Assembly (NCBI GenBank): GCA_039932315.1
Contig: JBDTQG010000015.1
Location: 1,148-65,147, forward strand
Origin: Thermoanaerobaculia bacterium
Lineage (GTDB): Bacteria > Acidobacteriota > Thermoanaerobaculia > Multivoradales > JAGPDF01
Length of the DNA stretch: 64,000 nt
Direction of reading: 5' to 3'
The first letter of the stretch is position 1; the number at the start of each line of letters is the position of its first letter. Shown here in pieces: positions 2,438 to 20,124 of this stretch. The notes under the pieces are model-generated. The model was given only the letters and a program-made list of their open reading frames with translations, was not told where the DNA came from and searched no databases. Position numbers and translations under genes: made by a program.

Positions 2438-3438
2438 CAAGGTCCTCGTCTTTCAGAGCTTTCGTCATCGGACCCGCTGGGGACGGCAAGGGCCGGAACC
2501 TCCGCACCGCGAGCGCGGGCGCGCGGGTGAGCGTCGCGATAGACGCTCTGCAGCCGTTCGATGTCGACGTGGGTGTAGCGCTGCGTCGTCGAGAGCGAGC
2601 TATGCCCGAGGAGCTCCTGGATTGCGCGAAGGTCGGCGCCGCCCTCGAGCAGGTGTGTCGCGAAAGTGTGCCGGAGGGTATGCGGATGAACCCCGCGCGC
2701 GGTCGCGGTGGCGATGACGTAGCGATCGAGAATCCTGCGCACCGAGCGATCCGTGAGGCGTTCGCCGCGCAGGTTGACGAAGAGCGGGTCGTCGTCGCCG
2801 AAGCTTGCGGCACGGCCTGCACGCAACGCCGTCCACCCCTCTCGCCAGGCGCGGAGCGCAGCCTGTGCCGGCCGGCCGAACGGGACCATGCGCTCTTTGT
2901 CGCCCTTGCCGACGGTGCGCAGAACGCGCTCCTTGAGATCGAGATCGCGCCAGTCGAGGCTGACGAGCTCGGCGACCCGCAGGCCGGTGGCATAGAGCAG
3001 CTCGAGGATCGCGCGGTCCCGCAGCGCGACCGGTTCGTCGCCGGCCGGTGCTGCAAGAAGCGCTTCGATCTCGCCCGGACGAAGGTGGCGCGGGAGCGTC
3101 TGGGGGACCTTCGGCGTGCGAACGCGCTGCGCGGGATTCTGCGTTGCCTCGCCGACGCGGCAGGCCCAGCGGAAAAATGTCCGCAGCGCCGAGAGCGCAC
3201 GGCCCTGGCTCCTGCGGCTCCGTCCGCCCGACGCTCGCGAAAGGGAGGCGAGAAATGAGCGCACCGCGACGACGTCGATCGCTGCGAGATCGATCGTTTC
3301 TTCCGCCCGGCTGAGGTATTCCGTGGCGAGGAATTCAACGAAGCGATCGAGATCGCCGGCGTAAGCGCGCACCGTGTGCGGCGAAAGCGCCCGTTCGCCT
3401 TCGAGATGCGCGAGAAAGCGGGCGGTCAGAGCCCGCAC
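2437..3438 (-). CDS. xerC: tyrosine recombinase XerC/XerD family
   Basis: Last 333 codons of ORF 2437..3981. Catalytic blocks: ATGLRVAELVSL and HTLRHTFATHLLEGGADLRAIQELLGHSSLSTTQRYTHV. N-terminal core-binding block: LSPHTVRAYAGDLDRFVEF. The upstream part of the ORF overlaps trmFO, so the start is set at GTG 3438 (13-nt overlap with trmFO); start uncertain. The position after trmFO mirrors the Bacillus gid-codV order. Confidence 0.85.
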   Translation of the reverse strand: MRALTARFLAHLEGERALSPHTVRAYAGDLDRFVEFLATEYLSRAEETIDLAAIDVVAVRSFLASLSRASGGRSRRSQGRALSALRTFFRWACRVGEATQNPAQRVRTPKVPQTLPRHLRPGEIEALLAAPAGDEPVALRDRAILELLYATGLRVAELVSLDWRDLDLKERVLRTVGKGDKERMVPFGRPAQAALRAWREGWTALRAGRAASFGDDDPLFVNLRGERLTDRSVRRILDRYVIATATARGVHPHTLRHTFATHLLEGGADLRAIQELLGHSSLSTTQRYTHVDIERLQSVYRDAHPRARARGAEVPALAVPSGSDDESSERRGP

Positions 3439-4775: not shown

Positions 4776-4875
4776 GCGTCCATTGTAGCCGGGGGCGAGG
4801 GGCGGAATGTCCTCTTGGGGTGCTGGTTTGCGCTTAATAGAGGTGGAAGCCGATCCGTTCCCCAGGGAGAAACGC

Positions 4876-5406
4876 ATGAACTCGCCGATGTCCATTCCGC
4901 ACTTCACCAAGCGCCCGAAGCTGGGCGAAACGCTGCGCTTCTTCGGTCTGCTTTCGGGCGCCGAGCTCGACATCGCGCTCATCCGGCAGGAGAACGAGGG
5001 CGGAAGGCTCGGCACCTGCCTGCTCGACACCGGGCTCCTCGACGAAGCGACGCTTCTCGCCGCGCTCGGCGCGCAGCAGAACGTCACGACGGTCGATGCC
5101 GCGACGCTCGATGCGCTGCCTCAGTCCGCTGCGGCATTTCTGCCGGCGCGTGCTGCGCTCGTGGCGCGCGCAGTGCCGATCGCGCGCAGCGGCAAGTCGT
5201 TGGAGGTCGCGATGCTCGATCCGTCTTCCATGCAACTCATCGACGAGCTCGCCGCCGTCAGCCGCCTGGTGATCGTGCCGCGCCTCGCGCTCGAAGTGCG
5301 ACTGACGCAGTGTCTCGAGCGCCTCTACGATCTGACGATTTCCGGCCGCTTCGCCCGCACCCGCGAGCGCATCAGCCGCCGGCTCGCGCACGGCGTCGCG
5401 GTCTGA
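4876..5406 (+). CDS. stand-alone MshEN / T2SSE_N domain protein (predicted c-di-GMP receptor)
   Basis: ORF 4807..5406 trimmed to ATG 4876 (AGGGAGA 5 nt upstream). Two tandem 24-aa MshEN-type motifs, KLGETLRFFGLLSGAELDIALIRQ and RLGTCLLDTGLLDEATLLAALGAQ, are separated by ENEGG. They are followed by a GspE/PilB N-terminal-like segment (LEVAMLDPSSMQLIDELAAVSRLVIVPRLALEVRL). No ATPase domain. Confidence 0.75.
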   Translation: MNSPMSIPHFTKRPKLGETLRFFGLLSGAELDIALIRQENEGGRLGTCLLDTGLLDEATLLAALGAQQNVTTVDAATLDALPQSAAAFLPARAALVARAVPIARSGKSLEVAMLDPSSMQLIDELAAVSRLVIVPRLALEVRLTQCLERLYDLTISGRFARTRERISRRLAHGVAV

Positions 5407-5407
5407 T

Positions 5408-8194: not shown

Positions 8195-8281
8195 CTCCTT
8201 GTCAGAATCGAACAGGGAGACTCTGCGCCACGTCGTTCCGCGCGACGACCCGCGCTGGTCAGCGCGCGGGACTGACCTTGG

Positions 8282-10615
8282 TCAGGTGGCGACGCTGTCT
8301 GTGGACTCGCTGCCCTCGTACGGCGCGATGTAGTCGCAGGCCTCGTTCGGGCAGACGAGCTCGGTGCCCCGCCGTTTGGTCGTCTTCAGCGTGAGCAGCG
8401 GGTAGGCGCACTTCGGACAGGCCTGCTGGACGGGGGGATTCCACAGTGCGAACTTGCAGTCCGGGTAGCGGCTGCAGGAGTAGAAGATCTTCCCGCGCCG
8501 CGACTTCTTCTCCTGGATCGTGCCCTGCTTGCACTCGGGACACTGCACGCCGGTGTCCTTCGGCGGCGCCGCAGGCGGCCCGGTCTTGCGGATGTTCTTG
8601 CACTCCGGGTAGCCCGTGCAGCCGAGGAAAACGCCGAAACGACTGCGCCGCATGGCCATCGGCTTGCCGCACTTCTCGCACGGCGGGATGTCGGAAGGCT
8701 CCGCGGAAGCCGACGCTCCGCCGTCCGCGGGCGCATTGAGATCGCGCGTGTAGTCACAGGGCGGATCGTTGCGATACGTGCTGCAGCCGAGAAATGCACC
8801 ATAGCGGCCGAAGCGCATCACGAGGTCCGCGCCGCACTTCGGGCACTTCTCATCCACCTTGACGCCATCACGCTTGACGTTCGGCATCGTCTCGGCAGCG
8901 GTGACGAGATCCTTCGAGAAGCGGACGTCGAACTCTTCGACGGCGCGCTTCCATGGCATCTCGCCCTCTTCGATCCGATCGAGCTCCTCTTCGAGCTGCG
9001 CGGTGTAGCCCTCGTTCAGGATGTCCGAGAAGCCTTTCTGCAGCATGTCGTTCACCATCTTGCCGAGAGCGAGAGGATTGAAACGCCCTTCGACCTTCTC
9101 CGCATAGTCCCGGGTGGTCAGGGTCGACAGGATCGAGGCATAGGTCGAAGGGCGGCCGATGCCGTTCTCTTCGAGCGCCTTGACCAGTGTCGCTTCGCTG
9201 AACTGCGCCGGCGGCTGGGTGAACTTCTGTTCCTTGTTGAGCTTGACGAGCTTCAGGGTCTCGCCCTCCCGAAGCGCCGGGAGCAGCCCGTCGGACTCGT
9301 CCTCATCGTCAACGTCGCCCCGCTGCGCGGCGCGACGTTCGGCGGCTTCCTCTTTGGCCTCCTGATAGACGGCGAGAAAGCCGGGGCTCTTCATCACCTT
9401 GCCGGAGGCGCGCAGCGTGTAGATGCCGTTCGCGATGTCGACCTGGGTGACGTCGAAGACTGCCGGCAGCATCTGACTGGCGAGGAAACGATCCCAGATG
9501 AGGCGGTAGAGCTTGAGCTCGTCGGCTTCGAGGTACGGCGCGAGCTCCTCCGGCGGCAGATCGAGGAACGTCGGCCGGATCGCTTCGTGCGCGTCCTGTG
9601 CACCCTTCTTGGAGGCGTAGACATTGGGCTTCGCCGGCAGCTTGTCGGCGCCGTAGGTTTTCGTGATCGTTTCCCGCACCGCGTCGATCGCCTCGGCGGC
9701 GACGCGCGTCGAGTCGGTTCGCATGTAGGTGATGAGACCGATCTGTCCGCGGTCGCCGATTTCGCGCCCTTCATAAAGCCCCTGGGCGAGCCCCATCGTG
9801 CGCTTGACCGAGTAGCTGAACTTGCGCGCCGCCTCCTGCTGCAGCCGGCTGGTGATGAACGGCGGCAACGGCTTCTGCTTCGATTCCTTGCGTTCGATCG
9901 CCGCGACCTTGAAGGCACCGGCGAGGAGATCCTTTTCGATCGTCGCGGCCTGGGTGCCGTCCGTGACCCTCGCCTTCTTGCCTTCGACCTGATGGAGCCG
10001 CGCCGAAAACTCGGGCGGCACCGACGCGGTGAAGCGCCCGCCGACGATCCAGTACTCCTCGGGATTGAAGGCGTCGATCTCGGCCTGGCGCTCGCAGACC
10101 ATCTTGAGCGCAACCGACTGTACGCGGCCCGCCGACAGACCGCGTTTCAGCTTGTCCCAGAGGAGCGGCGAGAGCTTGAATCCCATGAGCCGGTCGATGA
10201 CGCGGCGAGCCTGCTGCGCGTCGACGCGGTTGACGTCGATCTTGCCCTTGTTCTCGAGCGCCTTCAGCACCGCGGTCTTGGTGATTTCGTTGAAGGTGAC
10301 GCGGTGCATCTCGCCTTCGACGTCGCCGAGAACCGCCGCGATGTGCCACGCGATCGCCTCTCCCTCGCGGTCCGGATCGGGAGCGAGATAGATCTGCTTC
10401 GCCTTCTTGGCGGCATCTTTCAGCTTCTTGACGACATCCTTCTTCGTCGCGAGGACCGCATAGGTCGGCTCGAAGCCCGGACCGAGGCCCATGTCCTTCT
10501 TCGGCAGATCGCGGATATGTCCGACGGACGCTTCGACGGCCCAGTCGCGACCGAGAAACTTCTTCAGGGTCCGCGTCTTGGCGGGGCTTTCGACGATGAT
10601 CAGGTTTTTGGCCAC
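8282..10615 (-). CDS. topA: DNA topoisomerase I
   Basis: 777-aa ORF. Toprim start: MAKNLIIVESPAKTRTLKKFLG...VGHIRDLP. Active-site region: GLITYMRTDSTRV. Four C-terminal Cys4 zinc ribbons: CPKCGADL...C, CEKCGKPM...C, CPECKQG...C, CPKCAYPL...C. Confidence 0.97.
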   Translation of the reverse strand: MAKNLIIVESPAKTRTLKKFLGRDWAVEASVGHIRDLPKKDMGLGPGFEPTYAVLATKKDVVKKLKDAAKKAKQIYLAPDPDREGEAIAWHIAAVLGDVEGEMHRVTFNEITKTAVLKALENKGKIDVNRVDAQQARRVIDRLMGFKLSPLLWDKLKRGLSAGRVQSVALKMVCERQAEIDAFNPEEYWIVGGRFTASVPPEFSARLHQVEGKKARVTDGTQAATIEKDLLAGAFKVAAIERKESKQKPLPPFITSRLQQEAARKFSYSVKRTMGLAQGLYEGREIGDRGQIGLITYMRTDSTRVAAEAIDAVRETITKTYGADKLPAKPNVYASKKGAQDAHEAIRPTFLDLPPEELAPYLEADELKLYRLIWDRFLASQMLPAVFDVTQVDIANGIYTLRASGKVMKSPGFLAVYQEAKEEAAERRAAQRGDVDDEDESDGLLPALREGETLKLVKLNKEQKFTQPPAQFSEATLVKALEENGIGRPSTYASILSTLTTRDYAEKVEGRFNPLALGKMVNDMLQKGFSDILNEGYTAQLEEELDRIEEGEMPWKRAVEEFDVRFSKDLVTAAETMPNVKRDGVKVDEKCPKCGADLVMRFGRYGAFLGCSTYRNDPPCDYTRDLNAPADGGASASAEPSDIPPCEKCGKPMAMRRSRFGVFLGCTGYPECKNIRKTGPPAAPPKDTGVQCPECKQGTIQEKKSRRGKIFYSCSRYPDCKFALWNPPVQQACPKCAYPLLTLKTTKRRGTELVCPNEACDYIAPYEGSESTDSVAT

Positions 10616-10808
10616 AGGAGTCCGAGAACGGCTTCAGGGCGGCAGAAATTCCGCACTGCTCAGCGGCGGGTGACCGGCGGCATCCGGTTTCCTACCGGAG
10701 GATTACCGGTGCACTTCGCTTCATTCCAGCCGCCAGCGCCAGCCGCCAGCCAACCGGCCGGCGCCAGCCGACGGCCGCTTTTCGAGGGGGCGGACGCTAC
10801 CACAGGCG

Positions 10809-12128
10809 TCAAGGGGCCGCCCGGTCGCGCGCCCGGCGGTAGCCACCGCCGGCGCCGCGTACCGCCCAGCCGCCGAGCTCCATCTCGAGCAGTGCGGCGA
10901 CGACGCTTTCGATGGAGAGCCCGGCCGCGCTCGCGAGCGCCTCCGGAGCGCGATCGCGCAGCCCGTCGAGCTCGGCGTAGAGCGTCAACTGCGCCGGCGG
11001 GAGGTCCGGCCGGAGCGTCGCGCGAGTCTCGAGCGCGCCCGCGCCTCCGGACTGGGGCAGGCGTTCGATCGCCAGGCCCAGCCGGTCGAGGACGTCGGCC
11101 GGATGGGTGACGGGACCGGCGCCGTCGCGCAGGAGATCGTTCACGCCCAGAGCCTGCTCATCCGTGATCCGTCCCGGGACGGCCAGCACTTCGCGTCCGA
11201 GCTCGAGAGCGAGCCGCGCGGTGATGAGGGAGCCGGACTGCGCCGCGGCTTCGACGACGACGGTGATGTCGGCAAGCGCGGCGATGATCCGGTTGCGCAC
11301 GGGAAAGTTGCCCGCACTCGGCGGCAAAGCGCACGGATACTCGCTGAGCAGAGCGCCGTGCCGGCGGATGCGTTCGCCGAGCTCGCGGTGTCCTCGCGGG
11401 TAGTCGTGCTCCAGTCCACATCCGAGGACGCCGACGGTGACACCGCCGTCGGCGGCGAGTGCGCCGAGGTGCGCGGCGGCATCGATTCCCCGGGCGAATC
11501 CCGAAACCACGACGACGCCGCGACTGGCGAGCTCCCGCGCCAGCCAGGTGGCGACCTCGACGCCGTAGGGCGTTGCGCGCCGGGAACCGACGATGGCCAC
11601 GGCGGGCGCCGGGGCGATCGCAGAATGCGCCGCGTCGGCGCCGTTCAGCCCCGGGAAGAGATCCTGAAGCGGCACCTGGAAGCCGCCGGAAGCCTCTCCT
11701 GGGTGGGCCTCGGAGCCCTTCCCGGGGCGGATCTCGGAGGATCCGCACGCCAGGTGCGAGCTCGAGAAGTCGAAGCGAGCGAGTGTTCCGGCGAGGGTGA
11801 GGACGGGCGGAGGAAGAGCAAGGTCCAGCAGTCGGGCCGGATAGTCGGCGTCGAGCCGGGTGACGAGGCGGGCCGAGAGCCGGCTCGCCGCCTGCTCCTC
11901 GGCGCGGAAAACCGCCCTTGCGCTCGAGCGGCAAGCCAGGGCGGCCCGGATCGAATCCAAAGAGATGGAGAAGTGGGCGCAGACAGATTTCTCGTCGGCA
12001 GCGTGGATTCCGTCGCGCCAGAGCGACAGTTCCGCAGCCAGCTTGCACAGAGCGGCTCGCGAGAGACCGGCGGTGCGGTTCATGGCGACGAGGAGCGCGC
12101 GGTCGGATGGGCGGTCTGGGCCTTGCAT
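10809..12128 (-). CDS. dprA: DNA-processing protein DprA (Smf)
   Basis: 439-aa ORF. Rossmann-like DprA core: AIVGSRRATPYGVEVATWLARELASRGVVVVSGFARGIDAAAH...FPVRNRIIAALADITVVVEAAAQSGSLITARLALELGREVLAVPG. Sits immediately upstream of topA, as in many bacteria. Confidence 0.9.
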   Translation of the reverse strand: MQGPDRPSDRALLVAMNRTAGLSRAALCKLAAELSLWRDGIHAADEKSVCAHFSISLDSIRAALACRSSARAVFRAEEQAASRLSARLVTRLDADYPARLLDLALPPPVLTLAGTLARFDFSSSHLACGSSEIRPGKGSEAHPGEASGGFQVPLQDLFPGLNGADAAHSAIAPAPAVAIVGSRRATPYGVEVATWLARELASRGVVVVSGFARGIDAAAHLGALAADGGVTVGVLGCGLEHDYPRGHRELGERIRRHGALLSEYPCALPPSAGNFPVRNRIIAALADITVVVEAAAQSGSLITARLALELGREVLAVPGRITDEQALGVNDLLRDGAGPVTHPADVLDRLGLAIERLPQSGGAGALETRATLRPDLPPAQLTLYAELDGLRDRAPEALASAAGLSIESVVAALLEMELGGWAVRGAGGGYRRARDRAAP

Positions 12129-12309: not shown

Positions 12310-12879
12310 ATGAACCGGCTCTCAGTCCTCACCGTGGCGCGCAGGACAGTCACGGCCTCGATCCTGTTGTGGAGCGTTTCGACGCCGATGCTCGCGAAGT
12401 CGGCGACGAGCGGCAAGTCGCAACTGGCGTTCGGCGTCGACATGGCCAAGCGCGGACTGTGGAGCGAAGCGCTCTTCCGCTTCGAGCAGGCCCGAAAAGG
12501 CGATCCCGAAAGTCTCTCGATTCTCAACAACCTGGCGATCTGCTACGAGGCCGGCGGCCGCTTCGACGAGGCGCTGGCGACGTACAAAGAGGCGCTGAAG
12601 CTGAAGCCGGACAACCGCGTCCTGAAGCAGAACTACACCCGCTTCGCTGAGTTCTACCAGGGCTTCCGCCCGAAGAAGGCGGCACCGGCTGCGGCCATGA
12701 CCGTGACCGCGGTCGACGGCTCGACGCCCGGAACGAGCGTTCCGCCTGCGGATGCGCCGGCACCCGGCGGCATTCCGCTGCAACCGGTTCCGCCGGCCCC
12801 CGCGCCGGGCGAGCCGCCGTCTCCGACACCGCCGGCGCCGCCGACGGGCAGCGCTACGCCTCCCGGAGGTGGCCGTTGA
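12310..12879 (+). CDS. exported TPR-repeat protein with Pro/Ala-rich tail
   Basis: ORF 11860..12879 trimmed to ATG 12310 (AAGGGGA upstream); the upstream part is antisense to dprA. Signal-like N-terminus: MNRLSVLTVARRTVTASILLWSV. TPR blocks: GLWSEALFRFEQARKGDPESLSILNNLAICYEAGGRFDEALATYKEALKLKPDN. Confidence 0.75.
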   Translation: MNRLSVLTVARRTVTASILLWSVSTPMLAKSATSGKSQLAFGVDMAKRGLWSEALFRFEQARKGDPESLSILNNLAICYEAGGRFDEALATYKEALKLKPDNRVLKQNYTRFAEFYQGFRPKKAAPAAAMTVTAVDGSTPGTSVPPADAPAPGGIPLQPVPPAPAPGEPPSPTPPAPPTGSATPPGGGR

Positions 12880-13631
12880 ACTTTGCCGTGAGCTCGTCGT
12901 CCCATGTTTCCCGTCATCGTTCGCGCCGATGTTTGCGCAACACCTCGCTGGCGTTCCTGGCGTTCCTGCCGCTGCTTCTCTCCGTCGCACCGCTCTCGGC
13001 CGCCGTCGAGGTCAAGCTCCGGCTGCCCGTGCGTGCGCGCATCGATCTCACCGGCAAGAAGTCGATCACGCCGGCGCCGTTCATCGTGGTGACCCGTGAA
13101 GGGGCCGGAGAGACTCCCGGTGGCACCTCCCTCAACGTGCAGCGCGAATTCGAGCACTATCTGGTGAAGGTCCTGCGGCGCGAGACCTCGCTCAAGATCA
13201 TCGAGTCCGGACCGGTCGACTATCCTTCGTACGATCTCGACCTGCTGTCGCGGAACCGGGAGTTCTGGCGCGCCGTCGGCGAGCGGACGCAGGCCGATCT
13301 CATCGTCGCCGGCAGCCTCGATTTCGACGTCCAGGACAAGAGCGGATATCGCACCGAGGAGTACGTCTCGCCGTACGACGGCCGGATCTACTACCGGCAG
13401 GTTCTGGTCGAGCGCACCGGTTTCGACTACGACATCGCCATGATGGTGTTCGACGGCAAGACGGGCGAGCGGATCTTCTTCGACAACTTCAAGGACTTCA
13501 AGCAGTTCGAAGGCGAAAGCGCCGATCCGCTGCAGGGGATGTTCGAGAATCTGGCCTCGCTGGAGGATCGCATCGTCGGCGTGTTCACCCAGAAGACCGT
13601 CGAGACCAGCCGCTTCCTGATGACCGATTGA
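12876..13631 (+). CDS. exported hypothetical protein
   Basis: ORF in the track. TTG 12876 overlaps the upstream stop (TTGA); GTG 12888 is an alternative. Signal peptide: SLAFLAFLPLLLSVAPLSAA. I recognise no family; alpha/beta-looking sequence (ADLIVAGSLDFDVQDKSGY...). Confidence 0.65.
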   Translation: MNFAVSSSSHVSRHRSRRCLRNTSLAFLAFLPLLLSVAPLSAAVEVKLRLPVRARIDLTGKKSITPAPFIVVTREGAGETPGGTSLNVQREFEHYLVKVLRRETSLKIIESGPVDYPSYDLDLLSRNREFWRAVGERTQADLIVAGSLDFDVQDKSGYRTEEYVSPYDGRIYYRQVLVERTGFDYDIAMMVFDGKTGERIFFDNFKDFKQFEGESADPLQGMFENLASLEDRIVGVFTQKTVETSRFLMTD

Positions 13632-16600
13632 TTCGAAAGGAGCCTCTCTTGGCTGACCTGGATCTCCTCGCCCCGCAGGGCGTAGTGGCTCGACGTGCAG
13701 CTCGCCCCGGCCGACGCACGCTCTTGTGCACCGCGGCGGCGGTCGCCCTGCTTTCGCTGGCGTTCGCTCCGGCGGCTTCGGCCCAGTTCGGCAAGAACAA
13801 GATCCAGTACCGGGACTTCGACTGGAAGCTGTACAACTCGCCGCATTTCGTCTTCTATTACTACGAGGACGAGAAGGACTCCCTCGAGAAGGTGGCGTCG
13901 CTCGCCGAAAGCGCCTACGACCGGCTGACGCGTGAGTTCGATCATCAGATCCAGGATCCGATCCCGATGATCTTCTACGCCACGCACTCGGCGTTCGAGC
14001 AGAACAACATCATGCTGAACTTCATTCCTGAGGGTGTGGGCGCGTTCGCGAGTCCGGTGCGCAATCGCATGGTGCTGCCGATCGATCTTCCGGATGGCGA
14101 GCTCTTCCAGCTCATCATGCACGAGCTCACGCACATCTTTCAGTACGACATCCTCTACAAGGGCAAGCTCGGCCGCGGCGTCGGCGGAAACGCGCCGCAG
14201 TGGTTCATGGAGGGCATGGCCTCGTACATGGCGAAGGACGAGTCGACGTCCGACAAGATGTTCCTGCGCGACGCCGTGGTGAACGATTCGATTCCTTCGA
14301 TCCTGCAACGCGGAACGTCCGGGTTCCTCGCCTATCGCTTCGGCCACGCCGCTTTCGATTTCATCGAGGAGCGCTGGGGCAAGGAAGGATTCCGCGATTT
14401 CCTGTTCGAGTTCCGCAACACTTTCGGTGGTCGCGCCGAGCGCGCCGTCGAGCGCTCCTTCCGCATCGATGCTGAAGACTTCGACCTCGACTTCCGGCGC
14501 TGGCTGCGCAAGAAGTATCTGCCGGAGCTCGTCGCGACCGGCGAGCCGTCGGATTTCGGCCGGCCGTTCCGCGACGAACGGAATGAGATCCAGCAGGTCA
14601 TCTCCCCGGCGGCATCGCCGTCGGGGGATCTCGTCGCGGCGATCGCCGTCACGAGCGGCGATCTCGACATCGTTCTCTACGACACGCGGACGCGCCGTGC
14701 GATCGCCAACCTGACCAAGGGCTACACCGGGAGCTATCAGTATCTGGTGTCGCAGTTCATCACCACCGGCGCTCGCGTCGGCCGTGACCTCGCGTTCTCC
14801 GCCGACGGCAACTATCTCGCCGTCTTCGCGAAGCGAGAGCGCGGGCGTAGTCTGCTGATCTTCGATGTCCTCGCCCGGAAACTGGTGAAGACGATCGCGA
14901 TGGATGTCGAGCAGCAGATGAACCCGGCATTCAGCCCCGACGGCCGGAAGGTGGCCTTCGCCGGAAACCGCAGCGGACGCTTCGATATCTACACGGTCGA
15001 TCTCGAGAGCCGCGAGGTCGCGCACGTAACCGACGATGAGACCTACGACGGTTCGCCGGTCTACACCGCCGACGGCCAGTCGATCATTTTCAGTTCGACC
15101 ATCGGTGAGAATCACAACCAGCTCTTCAAGGTCGATCTCGCCGACCCGACCAAGCGCACCCGCCTGACGCAGGGCGACTGGAACGACAAGGACGCGACCT
15201 TCAGCTCCGACGGCAAGCGCATCGTCTTCACGTCGGACCGCTCCGGCACCGACAACATCTACGCCATGGAGCTCGCGACGGGGAAAACGCTGCAGCTGAC
15301 CAATGCGGTCACCGGCTGCTTCATGCCGGCGGTGCTGAAGCGCGACGGCTCGACGGATCAGGTCGTCTACACCGGTTTCTGGCGCGCGACCTTCGATCTC
15401 TATCTCGTCGACATCGACAAGCCGGTCGCGGAGTCGACCGTGGCGGTGCCGCCGGCGGAAGCGACCGACGCGCAACCTCTCGCACAGTTCGAGCCGGACA
15501 TCCGCGTGACGCTCGACGATGCCAACCGGTCGAAGTACCGCGGCTTCAAGCTCTTCGTCGAAGATGCCGGAGCGTCGGTCGGGGTGACCAGCGATCAGAC
15601 GTTCATCGGTAACTCCTACCTCTCGCTGTCCGACTACCTCGGCAACCACCGGGTGATTCTGAATTTCAACTCAGTGTCGAGCTTCTCCGATTTCGACTTC
15701 ATCTACGTCGACCTTTCCCGCCGCTGGAACTGGTCCGCAGAGCTGTTCGATCGGCGCGATTTCTACGTCCTGGGCGGCAACACCGGAAACGTCCTCGCCC
15801 GGCAGGAGCGCAAGCAGGCGATTCAGCAGACCGGCGCCGCGGTCTCCTACATCTATCCGCTGTCGCTCTATCACCGGGTTTCCGCGGGCGCCGGATACAT
15901 CATTCAGAAGGCGACACTGCTGCAGTTCGACGGCACCTTTGACGGATCGGGGCGGCCGAACTTCGACAGCCAGGATTTCAAGAGCGACTATCCGTACGCG
16001 CAGTTGTCGTTCACGGGCGACAGCGCGGTCTTCGGTCAGGATGGTCCGGTATCAGGGCGGCGTTGGACGCTGGGCGGCATCTACGCCTTCGACCAGAAAC
16101 GGAGCGGTGCGCTGTACACGCAGTACCGTGCCGATCTCCGGCAGTATCTCCAGGTGAGCCAGCGGAGCAACCTCGCGCTGCGGCTTTTCGGCGGGTACGC
16201 GAGTGGCAATCAGATTCTGCCGTTCTACTTCGGCGGGCTGGACGACCTTCGCGGCGTGGATTTCCGATCCATGATCGGTGACCGCGCGTTCTTCACCAAC
16301 CTCGAGTATCGGTTCCCGCTGATCGACATCCTGGCAACGCCGGTTCTTAACTTCCAGGGTGTGCGCGGACGCGTCTTCCTCGACGTCGGCGGCGCCTGGT
16401 TCGATTCCGCGGGACAGGGCTTCAGGTTCTGGAACGGTGACGAGAATCGTCTGCAGGACGCCGTTTCCTCTTACGGCTTCGGCTTCACGGTCAACTTCAT
16501 CGGCCTCGACCTGAACTGGGACTTCGCGCAGCTCTGGGACTTCAAGGACACGGTCTCGGACAGCTTCACGACGCAGTTCTGGATCGGAGCGCGGTTCTAG
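13628..16600 (+). CDS. outer-membrane fusion protein: peptidase-MA-like domain + TolB/PD40 beta-propeller + Omp85 (surface antigen D15) beta-barrel
   Basis: 990-aa ORF. TTG 13628 overlaps the upstream stop (TTGA); GTG 13685 is an alternative. Signal peptide: LLCTAAAVALLSLAFAPAASA. Peptidase-MA-like motifs: HELTHIFQ plus WFMEGMASY. PD40-like units: FSPDGRKVAFAGNRSGRFDIYTVDL, YTADGQSIIFSS, FSSDGKRIVFTSDRSGTDNIYAMEL. C-terminal barrel-like alternating sequence ends FTTQFWIGARF (terminal Phe beta-signal). Confidence 0.85.
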   Translation: MIRKEPLLADLDLLAPQGVVARRAARPGRRTLLCTAAAVALLSLAFAPAASAQFGKNKIQYRDFDWKLYNSPHFVFYYYEDEKDSLEKVASLAESAYDRLTREFDHQIQDPIPMIFYATHSAFEQNNIMLNFIPEGVGAFASPVRNRMVLPIDLPDGELFQLIMHELTHIFQYDILYKGKLGRGVGGNAPQWFMEGMASYMAKDESTSDKMFLRDAVVNDSIPSILQRGTSGFLAYRFGHAAFDFIEERWGKEGFRDFLFEFRNTFGGRAERAVERSFRIDAEDFDLDFRRWLRKKYLPELVATGEPSDFGRPFRDERNEIQQVISPAASPSGDLVAAIAVTSGDLDIVLYDTRTRRAIANLTKGYTGSYQYLVSQFITTGARVGRDLAFSADGNYLAVFAKRERGRSLLIFDVLARKLVKTIAMDVEQQMNPAFSPDGRKVAFAGNRSGRFDIYTVDLESREVAHVTDDETYDGSPVYTADGQSIIFSSTIGENHNQLFKVDLADPTKRTRLTQGDWNDKDATFSSDGKRIVFTSDRSGTDNIYAMELATGKTLQLTNAVTGCFMPAVLKRDGSTDQVVYTGFWRATFDLYLVDIDKPVAESTVAVPPAEATDAQPLAQFEPDIRVTLDDANRSKYRGFKLFVEDAGASVGVTSDQTFIGNSYLSLSDYLGNHRVILNFNSVSSFSDFDFIYVDLSRRWNWSAELFDRRDFYVLGGNTGNVLARQERKQAIQQTGAAVSYIYPLSLYHRVSAGAGYIIQKATLLQFDGTFDGSGRPNFDSQDFKSDYPYAQLSFTGDSAVFGQDGPVSGRRWTLGGIYAFDQKRSGALYTQYRADLRQYLQVSQRSNLALRLFGGYASGNQILPFYFGGLDDLRGVDFRSMIGDRAFFTNLEYRFPLIDILATPVLNFQGVRGRVFLDVGGAWFDSAGQGFRFWNGDENRLQDAVSSYGFGFTVNFIGLDLNWDFAQLWDFKDTVSDSFTTQFWIGARF

Positions 16601-16634: not shown

Positions 16635-17801
16635 ATGACGACGGAGACATCGGGCGAGCTCGAACGCCGGGTCCTCGAGCAGGAGGCACTGCTCGAGATC
16701 GGCCTGGAGCTCGCGTCGACCCTCGATCTTCGCCGCGTGCTCTCGGTCGCCCTGACCAAAGCGGAAGAGTTCTGCCGCGCAGAAACGAGCTCGATCTGGG
16801 AGCTCGACGAGCCTTCGGGTGAGCTCTTCTTTCGCGTCGTGCATGGGCGCGCCGCGCCCGAGATCGTCAAGCTGCGAATCCCCGTCGGCCAGGGCATCGT
16901 CGGTGCCGTCGCCGCAAGCGGCCGCGCCGAGACGATCAACGACGTCGCGAGCGACCCGCGGTGGCGGGGTGACTCGAGTGAGCAGTTCGACACGCGCGCC
17001 ATACTCGCGGTCCCGCTGACGGCGCGCGGCCGGGTGATCGGCGTGCTGCAGCTCCTGAATCCGATCGGCAAGGATTCTTTCTCGGAGCTCGATTCCCATC
17101 GCATGCAGCTCTTCGCCGGGCCGCTCGCGCAGGCGCTCGAAAACGCGCGGCTCTATGCGGCGCAGCAGCGCCTTTTCGTCGAGACCGTCACGGCTCTCGC
17201 CGAGGCGGTGGAAAAGCGCGATCCGTATACCGGCGGACATCTTCATCGCGTCGTCGCCTATTCGCTGCTACTGGGGCGGGAGCTGCGCCTGGATTCGGAG
17301 GCGCTCGAGAGTCTCGCGCTCGGTGCGACGCTCCACGACATCGGCAAGATCGCCGTTCCGGATCACGTGCTCCTCAAGCCGAGCGCTCTGAGCGACGAAG
17401 AGGCCGCGCGGATGCGGCGTCATCCGGAGGACGGCGCCGAGATCGTGGCGACGATCGAGTCGCTGCACGAGATCCTGCCGATCGTCCGCAGCCACCATGA
17501 GCGGATCGATGGCAAAGGCTATCCGGACCGGCTCGCTGGCGATGCGATTCCGCTGGCGGCCCGGATCGTCGCCGTGGCCGACACCTTCGACGCCATGACG
17601 ACCAGCCGTCCCTACCGGACCGCCTTGTCGCCCGAGATCGCCGCCCGGGAGATCATCTCCAACGCCGGTGTGCAGCACTGCGCAACGGTGGTCGCCGCTT
17701 TTGAGAAGCTCTACGCGTCGGGCCGCTTCCGGGTGGAGCTCGGCGAGCTGTTAGCTCGTTCCTTGTCGGCGAAAATCGAGCGAGAGTACAATGACTGGTA
17801 G
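16635..17801 (+). CDS. GAF domain / HD-GYP domain protein (c-di-GMP phosphodiesterase family)
   Basis: 388-aa ORF, AGGGAGG upstream. GAF-like N-terminal half. HD-GYP blocks: TLHDIGKIAVPD, RRHPEDG, RSHHERIDGKGYPDRL, DTFDAMTTSRPYR. Confidence 0.9.
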   Translation: MTTETSGELERRVLEQEALLEIGLELASTLDLRRVLSVALTKAEEFCRAETSSIWELDEPSGELFFRVVHGRAAPEIVKLRIPVGQGIVGAVAASGRAETINDVASDPRWRGDSSEQFDTRAILAVPLTARGRVIGVLQLLNPIGKDSFSELDSHRMQLFAGPLAQALENARLYAAQQRLFVETVTALAEAVEKRDPYTGGHLHRVVAYSLLLGRELRLDSEALESLALGATLHDIGKIAVPDHVLLKPSALSDEEAARMRRHPEDGAEIVATIESLHEILPIVRSHHERIDGKGYPDRLAGDAIPLAARIVAVADTFDAMTTSRPYRTALSPEIAAREIISNAGVQHCATVVAAFEKLYASGRFRVELGELLARSLSAKIEREYNDW

Positions 17802-17804
17802 GCG

Positions 17805-18584
17805 ATGAAAGTAGAGATTCTGGGCAGCTACGGCGGCGAAAGCATCGACTGCCGAATGACGTGCCTACTGCTCAACGACACGATTGCGCTCGATGCCGGC
17901 TCGCTCTCGCAAACCCTGCCGATCGAGCGTCAACGGCTCGTGACCTCCATCGTGCTGACGCATTCGCACATGGACCACACTTCGTCGCTGCCGTTCTTCA
18001 TCGAGAACGTCTTCGGCAAGCTGCGCGAAGCGGTCGACATCTACGCCTCGCCGGCGACGATCTATGCGCTGCGCCGCCACCTCTTCAACAACGACACCTG
18101 GCCGGATTTCACCCGCCTGCCGAACCACCTTCTGCCGGTCATCCGTTTTCATGAGCTGCACGATGAAGTGCCGATCACGATCGGCGCCGTGAACGGCGAA
18201 GGTGGAGTGCGCTTCACGCCAATTCCGGTGAATCACGTCGTCCCGACGTACGGCTTCCTGATCGAGAACGGCGGTTCGAGTTTTCTCTGGTCGAGCGACA
18301 CGGGTCCCACGCAACGTCTGTGGGAGATCGCGAACCGGACGCCGAGCCTGAAAGGCATCTGGGTCGACGCGAGCTTCGACAACGCCATGCAGGGAATCGC
18401 CGACGTGTCGGGGCACCTCACGCCGGCGACGGTCGCGGCCGAGCTGCGGAAGCTGGAACGCCGCGTTCCGATCCTCCTGCATCACCTGAAGCCGCCGTGC
18501 ATCGAGCAGATCCAGCGCGAGATCGCGGTGCTCGAGAATCCCGACATCGGATTCCTTGAGCAGGGCCGCGTCTACGAGCTCTAG
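17805..18584 (+). CDS. metallo-beta-lactamase-fold, class-II 3',5'-cyclic-nucleotide phosphodiesterase-like protein
   Basis: 259-aa ORF starting 3 nt after the HD-GYP gene. LTHSHMDHTSSLPFFIE resembles the class-II PDE signature H-x-H-L-D-H. Overall layout (LLLNDTIALDAGS..., WSSDTGPT) fits that family. Call made from memory of the signature. Confidence 0.7.
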   Translation: MKVEILGSYGGESIDCRMTCLLLNDTIALDAGSLSQTLPIERQRLVTSIVLTHSHMDHTSSLPFFIENVFGKLREAVDIYASPATIYALRRHLFNNDTWPDFTRLPNHLLPVIRFHELHDEVPITIGAVNGEGGVRFTPIPVNHVVPTYGFLIENGGSSFLWSSDTGPTQRLWEIANRTPSLKGIWVDASFDNAMQGIADVSGHLTPATVAAELRKLERRVPILLHHLKPPCIEQIQREIAVLENPDIGFLEQGRVYEL

Positions 18585-18587
18585 TTC

Positions 18588-19346
18588 CTAAGGCTTGGCG
18601 GTGATGCGTGCGGCGAGCCGGAAAGCGGCCCGCCGCGCCGCACTGCGCGCTGCCTCGGCGTTGGGCTTTCCGGTCGCAGTGGCAAGCTCTTCGTACGACA
18701 GCCCGAGATCGACGCGCCCGACGAGCAGCACCTGATCGTCCTCGTCGAGCTGGAGAAGCGCCTCGCGATACTGCTGCTTCTCCTGCGACTCGATCGCCTC
18801 ATCGAGCGGCGTGTCGCGCGAGTCCGGCGTTTCGGAAAGGCCGCCTCCACCGCGCACTTCCCCCAGGCGCGCGCGCCGGATCTCATCGCGGATGCGATTG
18901 AAGATGCACTTCAGCACATATCGCTTGACGACCTCGGGCTCGAGCGCGCTGTCTTCTCCGAGCTGCCGCAGAACGTGAACGACAGCCTCCTGCACGAGAT
19001 CGCCGGTGTCCATTCGCCGGCGCGCATAGGTCGGCAACTTTCCGTGCGTCCAGCGTTGAAGATGCGGCAGAAGCGATGAAAGCAGCCGCTCGATCGTGTT
19101 CGGCCGTGAACGCGGCGGAGCGGAGATCTCGTCCGTGGCGCGCAGAGCGATGCTGACGAGCGAGATGTAGGCGTCGACTTCGGGCTCGGCGATTTCCGCT
19201 CTCTCCGATCCCTCGGGAAAGTTCGCAGCGAGCGCAGCGATCGCAGAGTCTGAAAGATGCGGCACGGCGCGCGGATACTCTCCGGCCGGCGCGGGGTCGA
19301 GCCGCATCGCCCCAGAGTTCTTTCCCCCGCCCGCCGAATGCGACAT
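18588..19346 (-). CDS. ECF-type RNA polymerase sigma-70 family factor with about 75-aa N-terminal extension
   Basis: 252-aa ORF. Region-2-like: DTGDLVQEAVVHVLRQL...YVLKCIFNRIRDEIRRA. Region-4-like: LLQLDEDDQVLLVGRVDLGLSYEELATATGKPNAEAARSAARRAAFRL. Paralogous to 19540..20124. Confidence 0.8.
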   Translation of the reverse strand: MSHSAGGGKNSGAMRLDPAPAGEYPRAVPHLSDSAIAALAANFPEGSERAEIAEPEVDAYISLVSIALRATDEISAPPRSRPNTIERLLSSLLPHLQRWTHGKLPTYARRRMDTGDLVQEAVVHVLRQLGEDSALEPEVVKRYVLKCIFNRIRDEIRRARLGEVRGGGGLSETPDSRDTPLDEAIESQEKQQYREALLQLDEDDQVLLVGRVDLGLSYEELATATGKPNAEAARSAARRAAFRLAARITAKP

Positions 19347-19539: not shown

Positions 19540-20124
19540 TCAGTCCGTGGGGCCGCCCGGCGTGCGTCCCATCGAACGCGCGAGGCGCATCGCCGCGCGC
19601 CGTGTCGCGTTGCGCGCGGCGTCCGGCGATGGCCGTCCGCTCATGATCGCGAGCTCCTCGAAGGAAAGCCCCATGTCGATGCGACCGACGAGCAACATCT
19701 GGTCGTCCTCGGGAAGTTGAAGGAGCGCCGCGCGATATTGCCGCCGGTTCTCTTCGTCGATCGCGTCCTCGAGTGGCGAGGGTCGGCTGTCCGCAGGGTT
19801 CGAAGTGTCGTTCGTCACTTCGCCGCGCGTCGCTCTCCGGACCTCGTCGCAGATGCGGTTCTGGATGGCGACGATCAGGTACTTGCGCAGCGCGATCGGA
19901 TTCGCCGCATCGATCTGACCGATGTTGCGCAACACACCGACGATCGCCTCCTGCACGAGATCGCCGGAGTCCATCCGACGGCGCGCGTAGCGCGGCAGTC
20001 GCCCGTGCGTCCAGCGTTGGAAGAACGGGAGCAGCGCGGCGATGGCGCGCTCGACCGCGGCAAAACGCCCGCGCGCTTCCGTCTCGACGCCGGCGTTGGC
20101 GCCGGCTCTGCGATCGTCGAGCAT
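19540..20124 (-). CDS. ECF-type RNA polymerase sigma-70 family factor
   Basis: 194-aa ORF. Shares with its neighbour the block LLP.[LF]QRWTHG.LP.YARRRMD.GDLVQEA and the region-4 block LLQL.EDDQ.LLVGR.D.GLS.EELA. Confidence 0.85.
   Translation of the reverse strand: MLDDRRAGANAGVETEARGRFAAVERAIAALLPFFQRWTHGRLPRYARRRMDSGDLVQEAIVGVLRNIGQIDAANPIALRKYLIVAIQNRICDEVRRATRGEVTNDTSNPADSRPSPLEDAIDEENRRQYRAALLQLPEDDQMLLVGRIDMGLSFEELAIMSGRPSPDAARNATRRAAMRLARSMGRTPGGPTD

What the first reader, a model, noticed from the sequence alone, without database searches (positions are those of the whole stretch)
13628..16600. Omp85-type barrel carrying a peptidase-MA domain and a TolB-like propeller instead of POTRA domains
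One 990-aa exported protein combines three parts:
1. An N-terminal HELTH ... EGMASY module, like MA-clan zinc peptidases of the Peptidase_MA_2 type.
2. Several PD40/TolB-type propeller blades.
3. A C-terminal roughly 350-aa region with Omp85/surface-antigen-like alternating sequence, ending in ...WIGARF.

Classical Omp85 proteins (BamA/TamA) carry POTRA domains in this position. A protease plus propeller tethered to an outer-membrane barrel suggests a dedicated envelope proteolysis or substrate-capture machine. It is preceded, with 4-nt overlaps, by a TPR protein and an exported alpha/beta protein. That loosely echoes the CpoB(TPR)/TolB pairing of Tol-Pal loci, but this last point is speculation.
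Basis: partly seen in the sequence, partly recalled or inferred. Interest (0 to 1): 0.6.

Follow-up and report, generated by a model that had tools for sequence, protein, structure and literature searches.

The report
Peptidase-propeller Omp85 outer-membrane protein
This gene really does encode an outer-membrane barrel of the BamA (Omp85) type that carries a zinc-peptidase domain and a TolB-like propeller instead of POTRA domains, but this design was catalogued in 2014 as the still unstudied "WD40-like Omp85" subfamily, so it is a new member of a known kind.

Summary
ORF 13628-16600 (+) encodes a 990-aa exported protein with four parts: a Peptidase_MA_2-like domain with invariant H165-E166-x-x-H169 and E195, a six-bladed TolB-like PD40 propeller, a 45-residue linker with no POTRA, and a 16-strand barrel. 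AlphaFold2 and Foldseek match the barrel to BamA (E 4e-11, TM 0.63-0.66).

The architecture is not new. Heinz & Lithgow 2014 (PMC4104836) list it as the "WD40-like Omp85" subfamily, and their Table S3 already records the aminopeptidase-like domain. Papers from 2024 still call it uncharacterised. Other agents of this scan have reported the same architecture many times on other DNA.

What I add for this lineage:
- The gene is the last of a three-gene cassette: a small TPR protein, a roughly 230-aa protein with a PelC/LptE/CsgG/FlgT-like fold, and the barrel protein.
- The cassette is kept across many families of Acidobacteriota.
- The first two genes are fused in some lineages.
- No type IX secretion markers were found in this genome.

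Most likely the protein is an outer-membrane-anchored zinc endopeptidase that faces the periplasm and acts on envelope proteins. That function is inferred, not shown. The Tol-Pal/CpoB analogy is not supported.

The parts
12310..12879 (+). Small exported TPR protein (189 aa, 2-3 TPR units plus a Pro/Ala-rich tail). First gene of the cassette.
   Evidence: TPR_2, TPR_19 and TPR_1 match at E about 1e-9. The start was mapped. Homologues lie upstream of the barrel gene in 76 of 80 Thermoanaerobaculia loci and in 16 of 17 loci from other acidobacterial families. Eight small upstream ORFs were scanned against Pfam and all eight are TPR proteins.
12876..13631 (+). Exported 251-aa alpha/beta protein ('p251') with a PelC/LptE/CsgG/FlgT/HpaA-like fold. 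Second gene of the cassette.
   Evidence: A GGAGG Shine-Dalgarno sequence precedes the TTG start. Pfam gives only a weak FlgT_M hit. The AlphaFold2 model has pLDDT 76. Foldseek matches HpaA at 2e-7, FlgT at 3e-6, GNA1162, PelC at 1.5e-5, CsgG and LptE. The gene lies directly upstream of the barrel gene in 80 of 80 close loci and in 39 of the 48 acidobacterial genomes where it was detected.
13628..16600 (+). Peptidase-propeller-Omp85 protein (990 aa from the TTG at 13628). The likely true start is the TTG at 13649.
13628..13783 (+). N-terminal leader and signal peptide (...RRTLLCTAAAVALLSLAFAPAASA|QFGK). The cleavage site after A52 is inferred.
   Evidence: The sequence is shown. The conserved mature sequence starts at Q53-F54-G55-K56. 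The region has low pLDDT over aa 1-57.
13799..14557 (+). MA-clan (gluzincin-type) zinc-peptidase-like domain, aa about 58-310.
   Evidence: Peptidase_MA_2 covers aa 94-293, profile positions 3-199 of 201. Of the 51 homologues, 36 hit Peptidase_MA_2, 40 hit M9 and 34 hit BSP. Distant relatives pass the Pfam threshold at 55.7 and 48.9 bits. The model shows a beta-sheet followed by helices H156-177 and H191-202.
14120..14134 (+). HELTH zinc-binding and catalytic motif (H165, E166, H169).
   Evidence: Invariant in 51 homologues. The motif lies on helix 156-177.
14210..14212 (+). E195 of EGMASY, the presumed third zinc ligand, 26 residues after H169.
   Evidence: Invariant and on the next helix, 191-202. 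The role as a ligand is inferred from gluzincin topology.
14579..15421 (+). Six-bladed TolB-like PD40 beta-propeller, aa about 318-598.
   Evidence: PD40 scores E 2e-24 and the TolB model scores 3e-34. TolB structures match at 6e-23. The model has six groups of 3-4 strands. Foldseek matches TolB 2hqs at 6e-11.
15422..15553 (+). Linker between propeller and barrel (aa 599-642), with no POTRA.
   Evidence: DSSP shows only very short strands here. No POTRA family hit was found.
15554..16597 (+). 16-stranded Omp85/BamA-type beta-barrel, aa 643-990, ending in Phe.
   Evidence: The model has 16 strands with short periplasmic turns and longer outer loops. Foldseek matches BamA barrels at E 4e-11, TM 0.60-0.66. 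The barrel profile finds only BamA chains among PDB sequences, at E 0.002. PF01103 hits 20 of 51 homologues, best 1.7e-11.
16232..16255 (+). Loop-6 motif GGLDDLRG (aa 869-876), the counterpart of the Omp85 (V/I)RG(F/Y) motif.
   Evidence: G869, G870 and R875 are invariant and G876 nearly so. The motif aligns with GGxxxVRG of BamA. It sits in the long loop between strands 11 and 12.
16376..16390 (+). F917-L-D919-V-G921 on strand 13, matching the Omp85 (F/G)xDxG motif.
   Evidence: F917 and D919 are invariant; V920 and G921 are nearly invariant. Naming it as this motif rests on my own knowledge of BamA.

Best explanation
The gene encodes a member of the 'WD40-like Omp85' subfamily, a single polypeptide in three parts. 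A 16-strand BamA-type barrel sits in the outer membrane. The zinc-peptidase domain and the six-bladed TolB-like propeller are attached to the barrel's N-terminal end and hang into the periplasm.

I propose that it works as an outer-membrane-anchored zinc endopeptidase. The propeller, and possibly the barrel's seam between strands 1 and 16, would hold or select envelope proteins, which the HExxH..E site would then cut. This would serve envelope protein quality control or processing. It would resemble what the soluble protease BepA does at the BAM complex, but with the protease built into the barrel protein.

In Acidobacteriota it probably acts as a complex with two co-transcribed partners. One is a small TPR protein. 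The other is a roughly 230-aa protein with the fold of barrel-associated accessory proteins (PelC, LptE, CsgG, FlgT).

Shown here: the domain architecture, the conserved catalytic motifs, the barrel fold, the lack of POTRA, and the conserved gene trio with its fusions. Inferred: periplasmic orientation, catalytic activity, complex formation and the kind of substrate.
For: Architecture:
- Pfam and NCBIfam hits.
- The AlphaFold2 model has pLDDT 80.7 and pTM 0.76.
- Foldseek matches BamA barrels and TolB.

Likely catalytic competence:
- H165, E166, H169 and E195 are invariant in 51 homologues.
- They lie on two consecutive helices that follow a beta-sheet, as in gluzincins.
- Relatives pass the Pfam thresholds for Peptidase_MA_2, PD40 and Omp85.

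The barrel is more than a passive anchor:
- The loop-6 RG motif, the FxDxG motif on strand 13 and the Gly three residues before the C-terminal Phe are all conserved.

Periplasmic orientation:
- The loop-6 equivalent lies between strands 11 and 12, and the even-to-odd turns are only 2-5 residues. This places the N-terminus of strand 1 on the periplasmic side.
- In other acidobacterial classes the partner proteins carry lipoprotein signal sequences.
- The N-terminal enzyme domain of the Omp85 protein PlpD was shown experimentally to stay in the periplasm (PMC11116518).

Complex with the partners:
- The order TPR, p251-like, barrel gene was found in 76-80 of 80 close loci.
- The p251-like gene is directly upstream in 39 of 48 acidobacterial genomes with a hit.
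- A TPR orthologue is present in 16 of 17 loci from other families.
- TPR and p251 are fused into one protein in four loci: L081, L085, L092 and L095.
- The p251 fold matches PelC, LptE, CsgG and FlgT.

Not a housekeeping replacement:
- The genome also has a canonical BamA, two other Omp85 proteins, a true TolB and M48 peptidases.
Against: - No experiment exists on any member of this subfamily.
- This protein itself scores below the Pfam threshold for Peptidase_MA_2 (24.0 against 32.4 bits) and gives no PF01103 hit at E<=0.1.
- A profile of the N-terminal domain finds no solved structure by sequence. I could not run a fold search on that domain alone.
- dprA and topA are also syntenic with the cassette across the phylum. 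Conserved gene order alone is therefore weak evidence; the fusions and the tight spacing carry the argument.
- An Ignavibacteria relative lacks the TPR and p251 genes nearby, so the partners are not universal to the subfamily.
- No substrate is indicated by any result.
Confidence: 0.5

Rival explanations
1. Outer-membrane protein assembly factor. The barrel would work like BamA or TamA, inserting or translocating other proteins. The propeller would play the part of BamB (the 'BamA-BamB fusion' idea of Heinz & Lithgow 2014), and the peptidase-like domain would act mainly as a binding or chaperone module.
For: - The Omp85 hallmark motifs are conserved: loop-6 RG, FxDxG and the Gly in strand 16.
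- TPR and small accessory partners recall BamD and BamE.
- Heinz & Lithgow make this proposal.
- In Ignavibacteria the gene lies two genes after a TamB-like gene.
Against: - The catalytic HExxH and Glu are invariant across the family, which argues for real proteolysis.
- There is no POTRA to hand over substrates.
- The genome already has a canonical BamA and a second POTRA-rich Omp85.
Confidence: 0.15
2. Self-exported surface protease. The barrel would translocate its own N-terminal peptidase and propeller to the cell surface, in type V fashion, where they would digest external proteins for nutrition.
For:
- PD40 propellers occur in tricorn and DPP-IV type peptidases that degrade peptides. The propeller hits DPPIV_N at E 2.7e-8, and Tricorn_N and Tricorn_2nd are recorded for relatives.
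Against: - The enzyme domain of PlpD was shown to remain in the periplasm (PMC11116518).
- There is no POTRA.
- Passing a folded six-bladed propeller and a 250-aa zincin through a 16-strand barrel has no precedent.
- The partners are periplasm-type lipoproteins in other classes.
- The predicted strand topology puts the N-terminus in the periplasm.
Confidence: 0.1
3. Exported-polymer or fibre gate. By analogy with PelB/PelC, AlgK/AlgE and CsgG, the TPR protein and the PelC/CsgG-like protein together with the barrel would form an outer-membrane export channel. The peptidase would process the cargo.
For: - The p251 fold matches PelC and CsgG.
- The TPR partner is always present.
- In one genome (G081, locus L093) a TPR and p251-like pair lies next to an Alginate_exp-type porin and no peptidase-Omp85 gene was detected.
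Against: - No glycosyltransferase, polymerase or curli-type genes lie in the cassette or its flanks.
- Omp85 barrels are closed by loop 6, and the loop-6 motif is conserved here.
- The Foldseek TM-scores for p251 are only 0.3-0.5.
Confidence: 0.08
4. Tol-Pal-like envelope tether. The propeller would bind a Pal- or OmpA-like partner, and the TPR protein would act like CpoB.
For: The propeller is most similar to TolB. A TPR gene is adjacent.
Against: - A genuine TolB lies elsewhere in the genome, above the equivalog cut-off.
- This protein scores 118.6 bits against a cut-off of 343.
- No tolQRA or pal genes are in the neighbourhood.
- The TPR protein is a small 2-3 repeat protein. I did not compare it with CpoB.
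Confidence: 0.04

Closest known systems
'WD40-like Omp85' (WD40-Omp85) subfamily of the Omp85/TpsB superfamily, Heinz & Lithgow 2014, Front Microbiol 5:370 (PMC4104836)
   Same: The layout is the same: PD40/WD40 repeats in front of an Omp85 barrel, with no POTRA. Their Table S3 gives Phyre2 hits for members to BamA/TamA (confidence 100), TolB (100) and an aminopeptidase or collagenase-type zincin (about 99). The subfamily is known only from sequence analysis.
   Different: Their members came from Caldithrix, Rhodothermus, Myxococcales, Chlorobi and others. The word 'Acidobacteria' does not occur in the paper's main text. Their text discusses only the WD40 part, as a 'BamA-BamB fusion'. The cassette of TPR protein, PelC/LptE-like protein and barrel gene described here is not mentioned there, and it did not turn up in the papers I searched.
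BamA (and TamA), the canonical Omp85 insertases
   Same: Both have a 16-strand barrel (Foldseek E 4e-11, TM 0.60-0.66). The loop-6 RG motif, the FxDxG motif, the Gly near the C-terminus and the terminal aromatic residue are also shared.
   Different: This protein has no POTRA domains. Barrel sequence similarity to the genome's own BamA is marginal (hhalign E 0.0018, probability 15%). The genome keeps a separate canonical BamA.
PlpD / patatin-like Omp85 (Hanson et al. 2024, PMC11116518)
   Same: Both are Omp85 barrels used as scaffolds for an N-terminal hydrolytic enzyme. In PlpD that enzyme stays in the periplasm.
   Different: PlpD carries a patatin lipase and keeps one POTRA. Here the enzyme is a zincin with a propeller, and there is no POTRA.
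BepA at the BAM complex (M48 zinc protease with a TPR domain; PMC8423444, PMC13478230)
   Same: The logic may be similar: a zinc protease combined with TPR, placed beside an Omp85 barrel in the periplasm to deal with envelope proteins. This is an analogy only.
   Different: The peptidase family differs (M48 against Peptidase_MA_2-like). BepA is soluble and docks onto BAM, whereas here the protease is covalently joined to the barrel. The genome also has M48 peptidases.
TolB
   Same: Both have a six-bladed PD40 propeller, and TolB is the best match in both sequence and structure.
   Different: The score is below the TolB equivalog cut-off, and this protein has no TolB N-terminal domain. The true TolB is encoded elsewhere.
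PelC, LptE, CsgG, FlgT and HpaA: small alpha/beta proteins attached to outer-membrane machines (for the 251-aa partner)
   Same: The fold is similar (Foldseek E 2e-7 to 1e-3). The partner is a lipoprotein in most acidobacterial classes and is encoded next to an outer-membrane barrel.
   Different: No sequence family match passes a threshold; FlgT_M scores 18 bits against a cut-off of 31. TM-scores are only 0.3-0.5. In this genome the protein has no lipobox. Its oligomeric state is unknown.

Membership tests
Omp85 superfamily | [quoted passage not shown] | tested here: met
   The AlphaFold2 model has 16 strands over aa 643-986. Foldseek matches BamA barrels at E 4e-11, TM 0.60-0.66.
Omp85 superfamily | Conserved loop-6 (V/I)RG(F/Y) motif between strands 11 and 12 | tested here: met
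   The motif GGLDDLRGV at aa 869-877 has R875 invariant and G876 nearly invariant. It aligns to GGxxxVRGF of BamA. The residue after RG is Val rather than Phe or Tyr.
Omp85 superfamily | (F/G)xDxG motif on strand 13 | tested here: met
   In F917-L-D919-V-G921, F917 and D919 are invariant. The definition of the motif comes from my own knowledge of BamA.
Omp85 superfamily | Pfam PF01103 hit above the gathering score | tested here: not met
   This protein gives no hit at E<=0.1. NCBIfam Omp85_fam scores only 21.7 bits against a cut-off of 200. Relatives do pass: 20 of 51 at E<=0.01, and distant ones score 60-64 bits against a cut-off of 24.
Omp85 superfamily (classical BamA/TamA/TpsB type) | [quoted passage not shown] | tested here: not met
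   There is no PF07244 hit in this protein at E<=0.1, and none among the families listed for the 51 homologues at E<=0.01. The linker aa 596-642 has no beta-alpha-alpha-beta-beta unit.
WD40-like Omp85 subfamily (Heinz & Lithgow 2014) | PD40/WD40 propeller repeats N-terminal to an Omp85 barrel, without POTRA | tested here: met
   compared with the architectures in their Table S2.
WD40-like Omp85 subfamily (Heinz & Lithgow 2014) | N-terminal aminopeptidase or zincin-like domain (their Table S3) | tested here: met
   Peptidase_MA_2 and M9 hits, with invariant HExxH..E. Their Phyre2 hits are shown.
WD40-like Omp85 subfamily (Heinz & Lithgow 2014) | Sequence clustering with their listed members (such as H1XQ58, D0MEQ5) | not tested
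   Those UniProt entries could not be fetched here. Indirect support: the N-domain profile finds about 785 clusters at E<=1e-30. The ten sampled clusters include Ignavibacteriales and candidate division TA06, and six of the eight representatives scanned show all three domains.
MA-clan gluzincin peptidase (Pfam Peptidase_MA_2, PF13485) | HExxH on a helix plus a Glu third ligand on the following helix | tested here: met
   H165, E166, H169 and E195 are invariant. They lie on helices 156-177 and 191-202. Zinc binding itself was not tested.
MA-clan gluzincin peptidase (Pfam Peptidase_MA_2, PF13485) | Family HMM score above the gathering threshold | tested here: not met
   This protein scores 24.0 bits against 32.4. 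Relatives score 55.7, 48.9 and 36.0 bits and pass.
MA-clan gluzincin peptidase | Thermolysin-like fold of the catalytic domain | tested here: inconclusive
   The order of secondary-structure elements fits.
TolB (Tol-Pal system) | Equivalog score, TolB N-terminal domain and tol-pal gene context | tested here: not met
   The score is 118.6 bits against a cut-off of 343. The true TolB is on another contig at 351.8 bits. No tol or pal neighbours are present.
Type IX secretion-linked variant (lead from earlier notes of this scan) | Neighbouring or co-occurring T9SS genes (PorV, SprA, CTD cargo) | tested here: not met
   PorV, SprA_N and Por_Secre_tail were not found in the window's genome, which is 94% complete. 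The controls for the last two rang nowhere, so these negatives are weak.

The most novel reading that the evidence does not exclude
The trio of TPR protein, PelC/LptE-like protein and peptidase-propeller-Omp85 would be a self-contained 'capture and degrade' machine. The Omp85 seam would pair with the beta-signal of stalled or surplus outer-membrane proteins, and the tethered zincin would cut them. This would be a dedicated route for outer-membrane protein turnover that does not depend on BAM and has no characterised counterpart.
Probability: 0.12. Interest if true: 0.75.

Novelty: new member of a known kind. Interest (0 to 1): 0.35.

Why it matters
The WD40-like (peptidase plus propeller) Omp85 proteins are one of the Omp85 subfamilies with no experimental data. 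The N-domain profile found about 785 clusters (at 50% identity) at E<=1e-30. The family occurs in about half of the Acidobacteriota genomes sampled and also in Ignavibacteria and candidate division TA06.

All Omp85 proteins studied so far assemble or translocate proteins. The exception is PlpD, which showed that the barrel can serve as a scaffold for a periplasmic enzyme. A protease built onto such a barrel would be a second example of that principle. It could also reveal how some bacteria remove or process outer-membrane proteins.

This particular locus adds one practical point. In Acidobacteriota the gene comes with two fixed partner genes, which are sometimes fused to each other. That gives a defined three-protein set for co-expression, structure prediction and pull-down experiments.

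Tried and rejected
- N-terminal domain profile (A4) against PDB sequences. Only spurious hits to designed repeat proteins came back, so the peptidase fold rests on Pfam hits, motifs and secondary structure.
- Foldseek on the whole model. The top 50 hits were all BamA, TolB or other propellers, so it says nothing about the peptidase domain.
- hhalign of the barrel profile against the genome's own BamA barrel. The match was weak (E 0.0018, probability 15%), though colinear.
- T9SS link suggested by earlier notes of this scan. PorV, SprA_N and T9SS CTD were not found in this genome, so I rejected it for this lineage. The control genomes did not ring for two of these families.
- Idea that the protein replaces TolB or BepA. 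Rejected: a true TolB and M48 peptidases are present.
- Idea that it replaces BamA. Rejected: a canonical BamA and two more Omp85 proteins are present.
- Downstream GAF-HD and MBL-fold genes as part of the module. The MBL gene follows in 56 of 80 Thermoanaerobaculia loci and the GAF-HD gene in only 14. Neither was found next to the gene in other acidobacterial families, so I treat them as lineage-level neighbours.
- Profile search with the p251 alignment. The best 120 hits listed were all close relatives (59-69% identity), so it gave no view beyond the class. The whole-genome searches and the fetched loci were needed instead.
- Locus L093 (genome G081). It has a TPR and p251-like pair with no peptidase-Omp85 gene detected. 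Pfam gave little, and I left it unexplained.

Full report
**What is in the sequence**

The window carries an uninterrupted 990-codon frame at 13628-16600 on the + strand. GC content is about 63-65%, so long chance ORFs are common; a 740-aa antisense frame overlaps this very gene. The frame is nevertheless a real gene. A search of the large protein collection returned more than 1,480 full-length relatives of 950-1000 aa, mostly from Thermoanaerobaculia and other Acidobacteriota MAGs. These are annotated "PD40 domain-containing protein" or "Tol biopolymer transport system component".

A TTG at 13649 is preceded by AAGGAG at a 7-nt spacing and is probably the true start. In that case the "4-nt overlap" with the upstream gene becomes an 18-nt gap. 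The overlap between the TPR gene and the 251-aa gene is supported by a GGAGG in front of the TTG at 12876.

**The three parts**

N-terminal domain:
- Pfam gives Peptidase_MA_2 over aa 94-293, covering nearly the whole profile, but at 24 bits it is under the 32.4-bit threshold. Weaker hits go to M9 collagenase, BSP and DUF6782.
- In an alignment of 51 relatives, H165, E166, H169 (HELTH) and E195 (EGMASY) are invariant.
- In the AlphaFold2 model these residues lie on two consecutive helices (156-177 and 191-202) that follow a small beta-sheet. This is the usual gluzincin arrangement.
- Across the 51 relatives, 40 hit M9, 36 hit Peptidase_MA_2 and 34 hit BSP.
- Distant relatives found through this domain pass the Pfam threshold outright, at 55.7, 48.9 and 36.0 bits.

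Propeller:
- PD40 repeats score E 2e-24, the TolB model scores E 3e-34, and TolB crystal structures score E 6e-23.
- The model shows six blades over aa 321-595.

Barrel:
- The model has 16 strands between aa 643 and 986. Turns on one side are short, and loops on the other side are longer, including a 26-residue loop between strands 11 and 12.
- Foldseek puts BamA barrels first, at E 4e-11 with TM 0.60-0.66 normalised to the target.
- A profile of the C-terminal 390 residues finds only BamA chains among all PDB sequences. The match is weak (E 0.002) but colinear up to the last residue.
- The Omp85 signatures are conserved: GGLDDLRG in the long loop, F917-x-D919-x-G921 on strand 13, a Gly three residues before the C-terminal Phe, and the terminal Phe itself.

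No POTRA is present. No POTRA family was hit, and the 45-residue linker has no such fold.

The model as a whole has mean pLDDT 80.7 and pTM 0.76.

**It is an extra Omp85, not the housekeeping one**

The same genome encodes several related housekeeping proteins:
- a canonical BamA;
- a 987-aa POTRA-rich Omp85;
- a weaker 598-aa Omp85;
- a genuine TolB above the equivalog cut-off;
- M48 peptidases.

**It is already catalogued**

Heinz & Lithgow (2014, PMC4104836) divided the Omp85/TpsB superfamily into ten subfamilies, one of which is "WD40-like".
- Their Table S2 lists PF07676 repeats together with PF01103.
- Their Table S3 lists three Phyre2 hits for members of this subfamily: BamA or TamA for the barrel, TolB for the WD40 part, and a "best aminopeptidase hit" (1z5h, 4kxd, 4fgm, 4ar1, 3qnf) at about 99% confidence.
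- A 2024 paper summarises the subfamily as having "divergent WD40 and peptidase domains".
- Another 2024 paper names the WD40-like family among those "not well characterized".
- I found no experimental study.

The notes of this scan also show that the same architecture has been reported and followed up many times on other genomes. I cite those notes as leads only.

**Distribution**

A profile of the N-terminal domain was searched against 1.84 billion representative proteins. It found 785 clusters at E<=1e-30 and 2,258 at E<=1e-10. Among the best 150 hits, the long ones are 900-1140 aa and in nearly all of them the domain sits at about residues 25-300. The shorter hits look like contig fragments.

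Named members include Ignavibacteriales, candidate division TA06, and cultured Melioribacter and Rosettibacter, where NCBI calls the protein "peptidase MA family metallohydrolase".

Within Acidobacteriota, 80 of 151 sampled genomes have the domain. The pattern is clear by family: some families score 0 of 8 or 0 of 10, and others 5 of 5 or 6 of 6.

**The neighbourhood, which is what this locus adds**

Upstream on the same strand lie two genes: a small TPR protein (12310-12879) and an exported 251-aa protein (12876-13631).

The 251-aa protein has no family assignment beyond a sub-threshold FlgT_M hit. Its AlphaFold2 model (pLDDT 76) resembles HpaA, FlgT, GNA1162, PelC, CsgG, CT253 and LptE. These are small alpha/beta proteins, mostly lipoproteins, that attach to outer-membrane barrels or rings. 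TM-scores are moderate, at 0.3-0.5.

Conservation of the trio:
- The order TPR, p251, barrel gene holds in 76-80 of 80 Thermoanaerobaculia loci. However, dprA and topA are syntenic there too, so this alone proves little.
- Across the phylum, a p251-like gene was detected in 48 of 151 genomes. In 39 of these it lies directly upstream of the peptidase-Omp85 gene on the same strand (coordinates).
- I fetched 18 loci from other families. Of the 17 that carry the barrel gene, 14 have a detectable p251-like gene immediately upstream (one of them, L082, only at E 0.009), and 16 have a TPR orthologue. The 17th has only 1.3 kb of upstream sequence.
- Eight small upstream ORFs were scanned against Pfam and all eight are TPR proteins. 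This includes two loci where the middle gene is too diverged to be recognised.
- In four loci (L081, L085, L092, L095) the TPR and p251-like parts are fused into one protein of 355-549 aa. This is the strongest argument that the two act together.
- In most other classes both partners carry a lipobox cysteine. In this window neither does.

Limits of the cassette:
- The downstream GAF-HD and metallo-beta-lactamase-fold genes are kept only within the class.
- A Rosettibacter relative has a different context, with a TamB-like gene and RNase R upstream and no TPR or p251. The cassette is therefore a feature of the acidobacterial branch, not of the whole subfamily.
- The type IX secretion link reported for other phyla in earlier notes does not apply here. 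PorV, SprA_N and the T9SS C-terminal domain were not found in this 94%-complete genome. The controls for two of these families were uninformative.

**How it most likely works**

The loop-6 equivalent lies between strands 11 and 12, and the turns after even-numbered strands are only 2-5 residues. Strand 1 therefore starts on the periplasmic side, so the peptidase and propeller should be periplasmic (inferred).

Two further points fit this orientation:
- The partners are lipoproteins in other classes.
- The enzyme domain of PlpD, long thought to be exported, was shown experimentally to stay in the periplasm (PMC11116518).

The invariant catalytic residues argue for a working protease. The conserved Omp85 motifs argue that the barrel is not just an anchor.

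My best reading, at about even odds, is an outer-membrane-anchored periplasmic zinc endopeptidase. It would act on envelope proteins with help from the TPR and PelC/LptE-like partners. In logic this is comparable to BepA at BAM, but the protein is not related to BepA. No result here points to a substrate.

Less likely alternatives are:
- an assembly factor in the sense of Heinz & Lithgow;
- a self-exported surface protease;
- a gate for polymer or fibre export;
- a Tol-Pal-like tether.

**Verdict**

The feature is a new member of a known but unstudied kind. Interest is moderate to low for this single instance, and higher for the subfamily as an experimental target.

Noticed in passing
window 16635-17801 and 17805-18584 (+): A GAF plus HD-GYP-type (HD_5) protein and a metallo-beta-lactamase-fold protein with a class-II cAMP phosphodiesterase-like hit lie directly downstream, in the same direction. 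The MBL gene follows the barrel gene in 56 of 80 Thermoanaerobaculia loci and the GAF-HD gene in 14 of 80. Neither was found next to the gene in other acidobacterial families.
   Followed up: partly
L081 5071-6327, L085 7333-8475, L092 7487-8554, L095 4780-6429: In some acidobacterial families the small TPR protein and the p251-like protein are fused into one protein of 355-549 aa, directly upstream of the peptidase-Omp85 gene.
   Followed up: partly
L093 (genome G081) about 6700-11100: A TPR and p251-like pair is present but no peptidase-Omp85 gene was detected in this genome. The gene upstream is an Alginate_exp-type porin, preceded by an FG-GAP repeat protein. This suggests the accessory pair may serve other outer-membrane barrels.
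   Followed up: partly
window 13649: A TTG preceded by AAGGAG at a 7-nt spacing is a better start for the big gene than the TTG at 13628, which removes the 4-nt overlap with the upstream gene.
   Followed up: yes
window 13427-15649 (-): A 740-aa antisense open frame overlaps the gene. Several other long overlapping frames occur in this high-GC DNA. They are composition artefacts, not genes.
   Followed up: no
window 8282-10615 (-) and 10809-12128 (-): Two ORFs that I took by eye to be topA and dprA lie divergently upstream of the cassette. This arrangement is kept in many acidobacterial families well beyond the class, so gene order in this region is unusually stable.
   Followed up: partly
own genome G000: C112 about 1-2496 (-), C11 34562-37522 (+), C3 25655-27448 (+): Three further Omp85 proteins are encoded: a canonical BamA, a 987-aa Omp85 that looks POTRA-rich by eye, and a 598-aa weak Omp85.
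   Followed up: partly
L099 (Rosettibacter firmus) 1-9216: In this Ignavibacteria genome the homologous gene follows a TamB-like (DUF748/TamB_N) gene and RNase R, with no TPR or p251 genes nearby.
   Followed up: no
window 18588-19346 (-) and 19540-20124 (-): Two similar ORFs of about 190-250 aa look like ECF-type sigma factors by eye. I did not check them with any tool.
   Followed up: no
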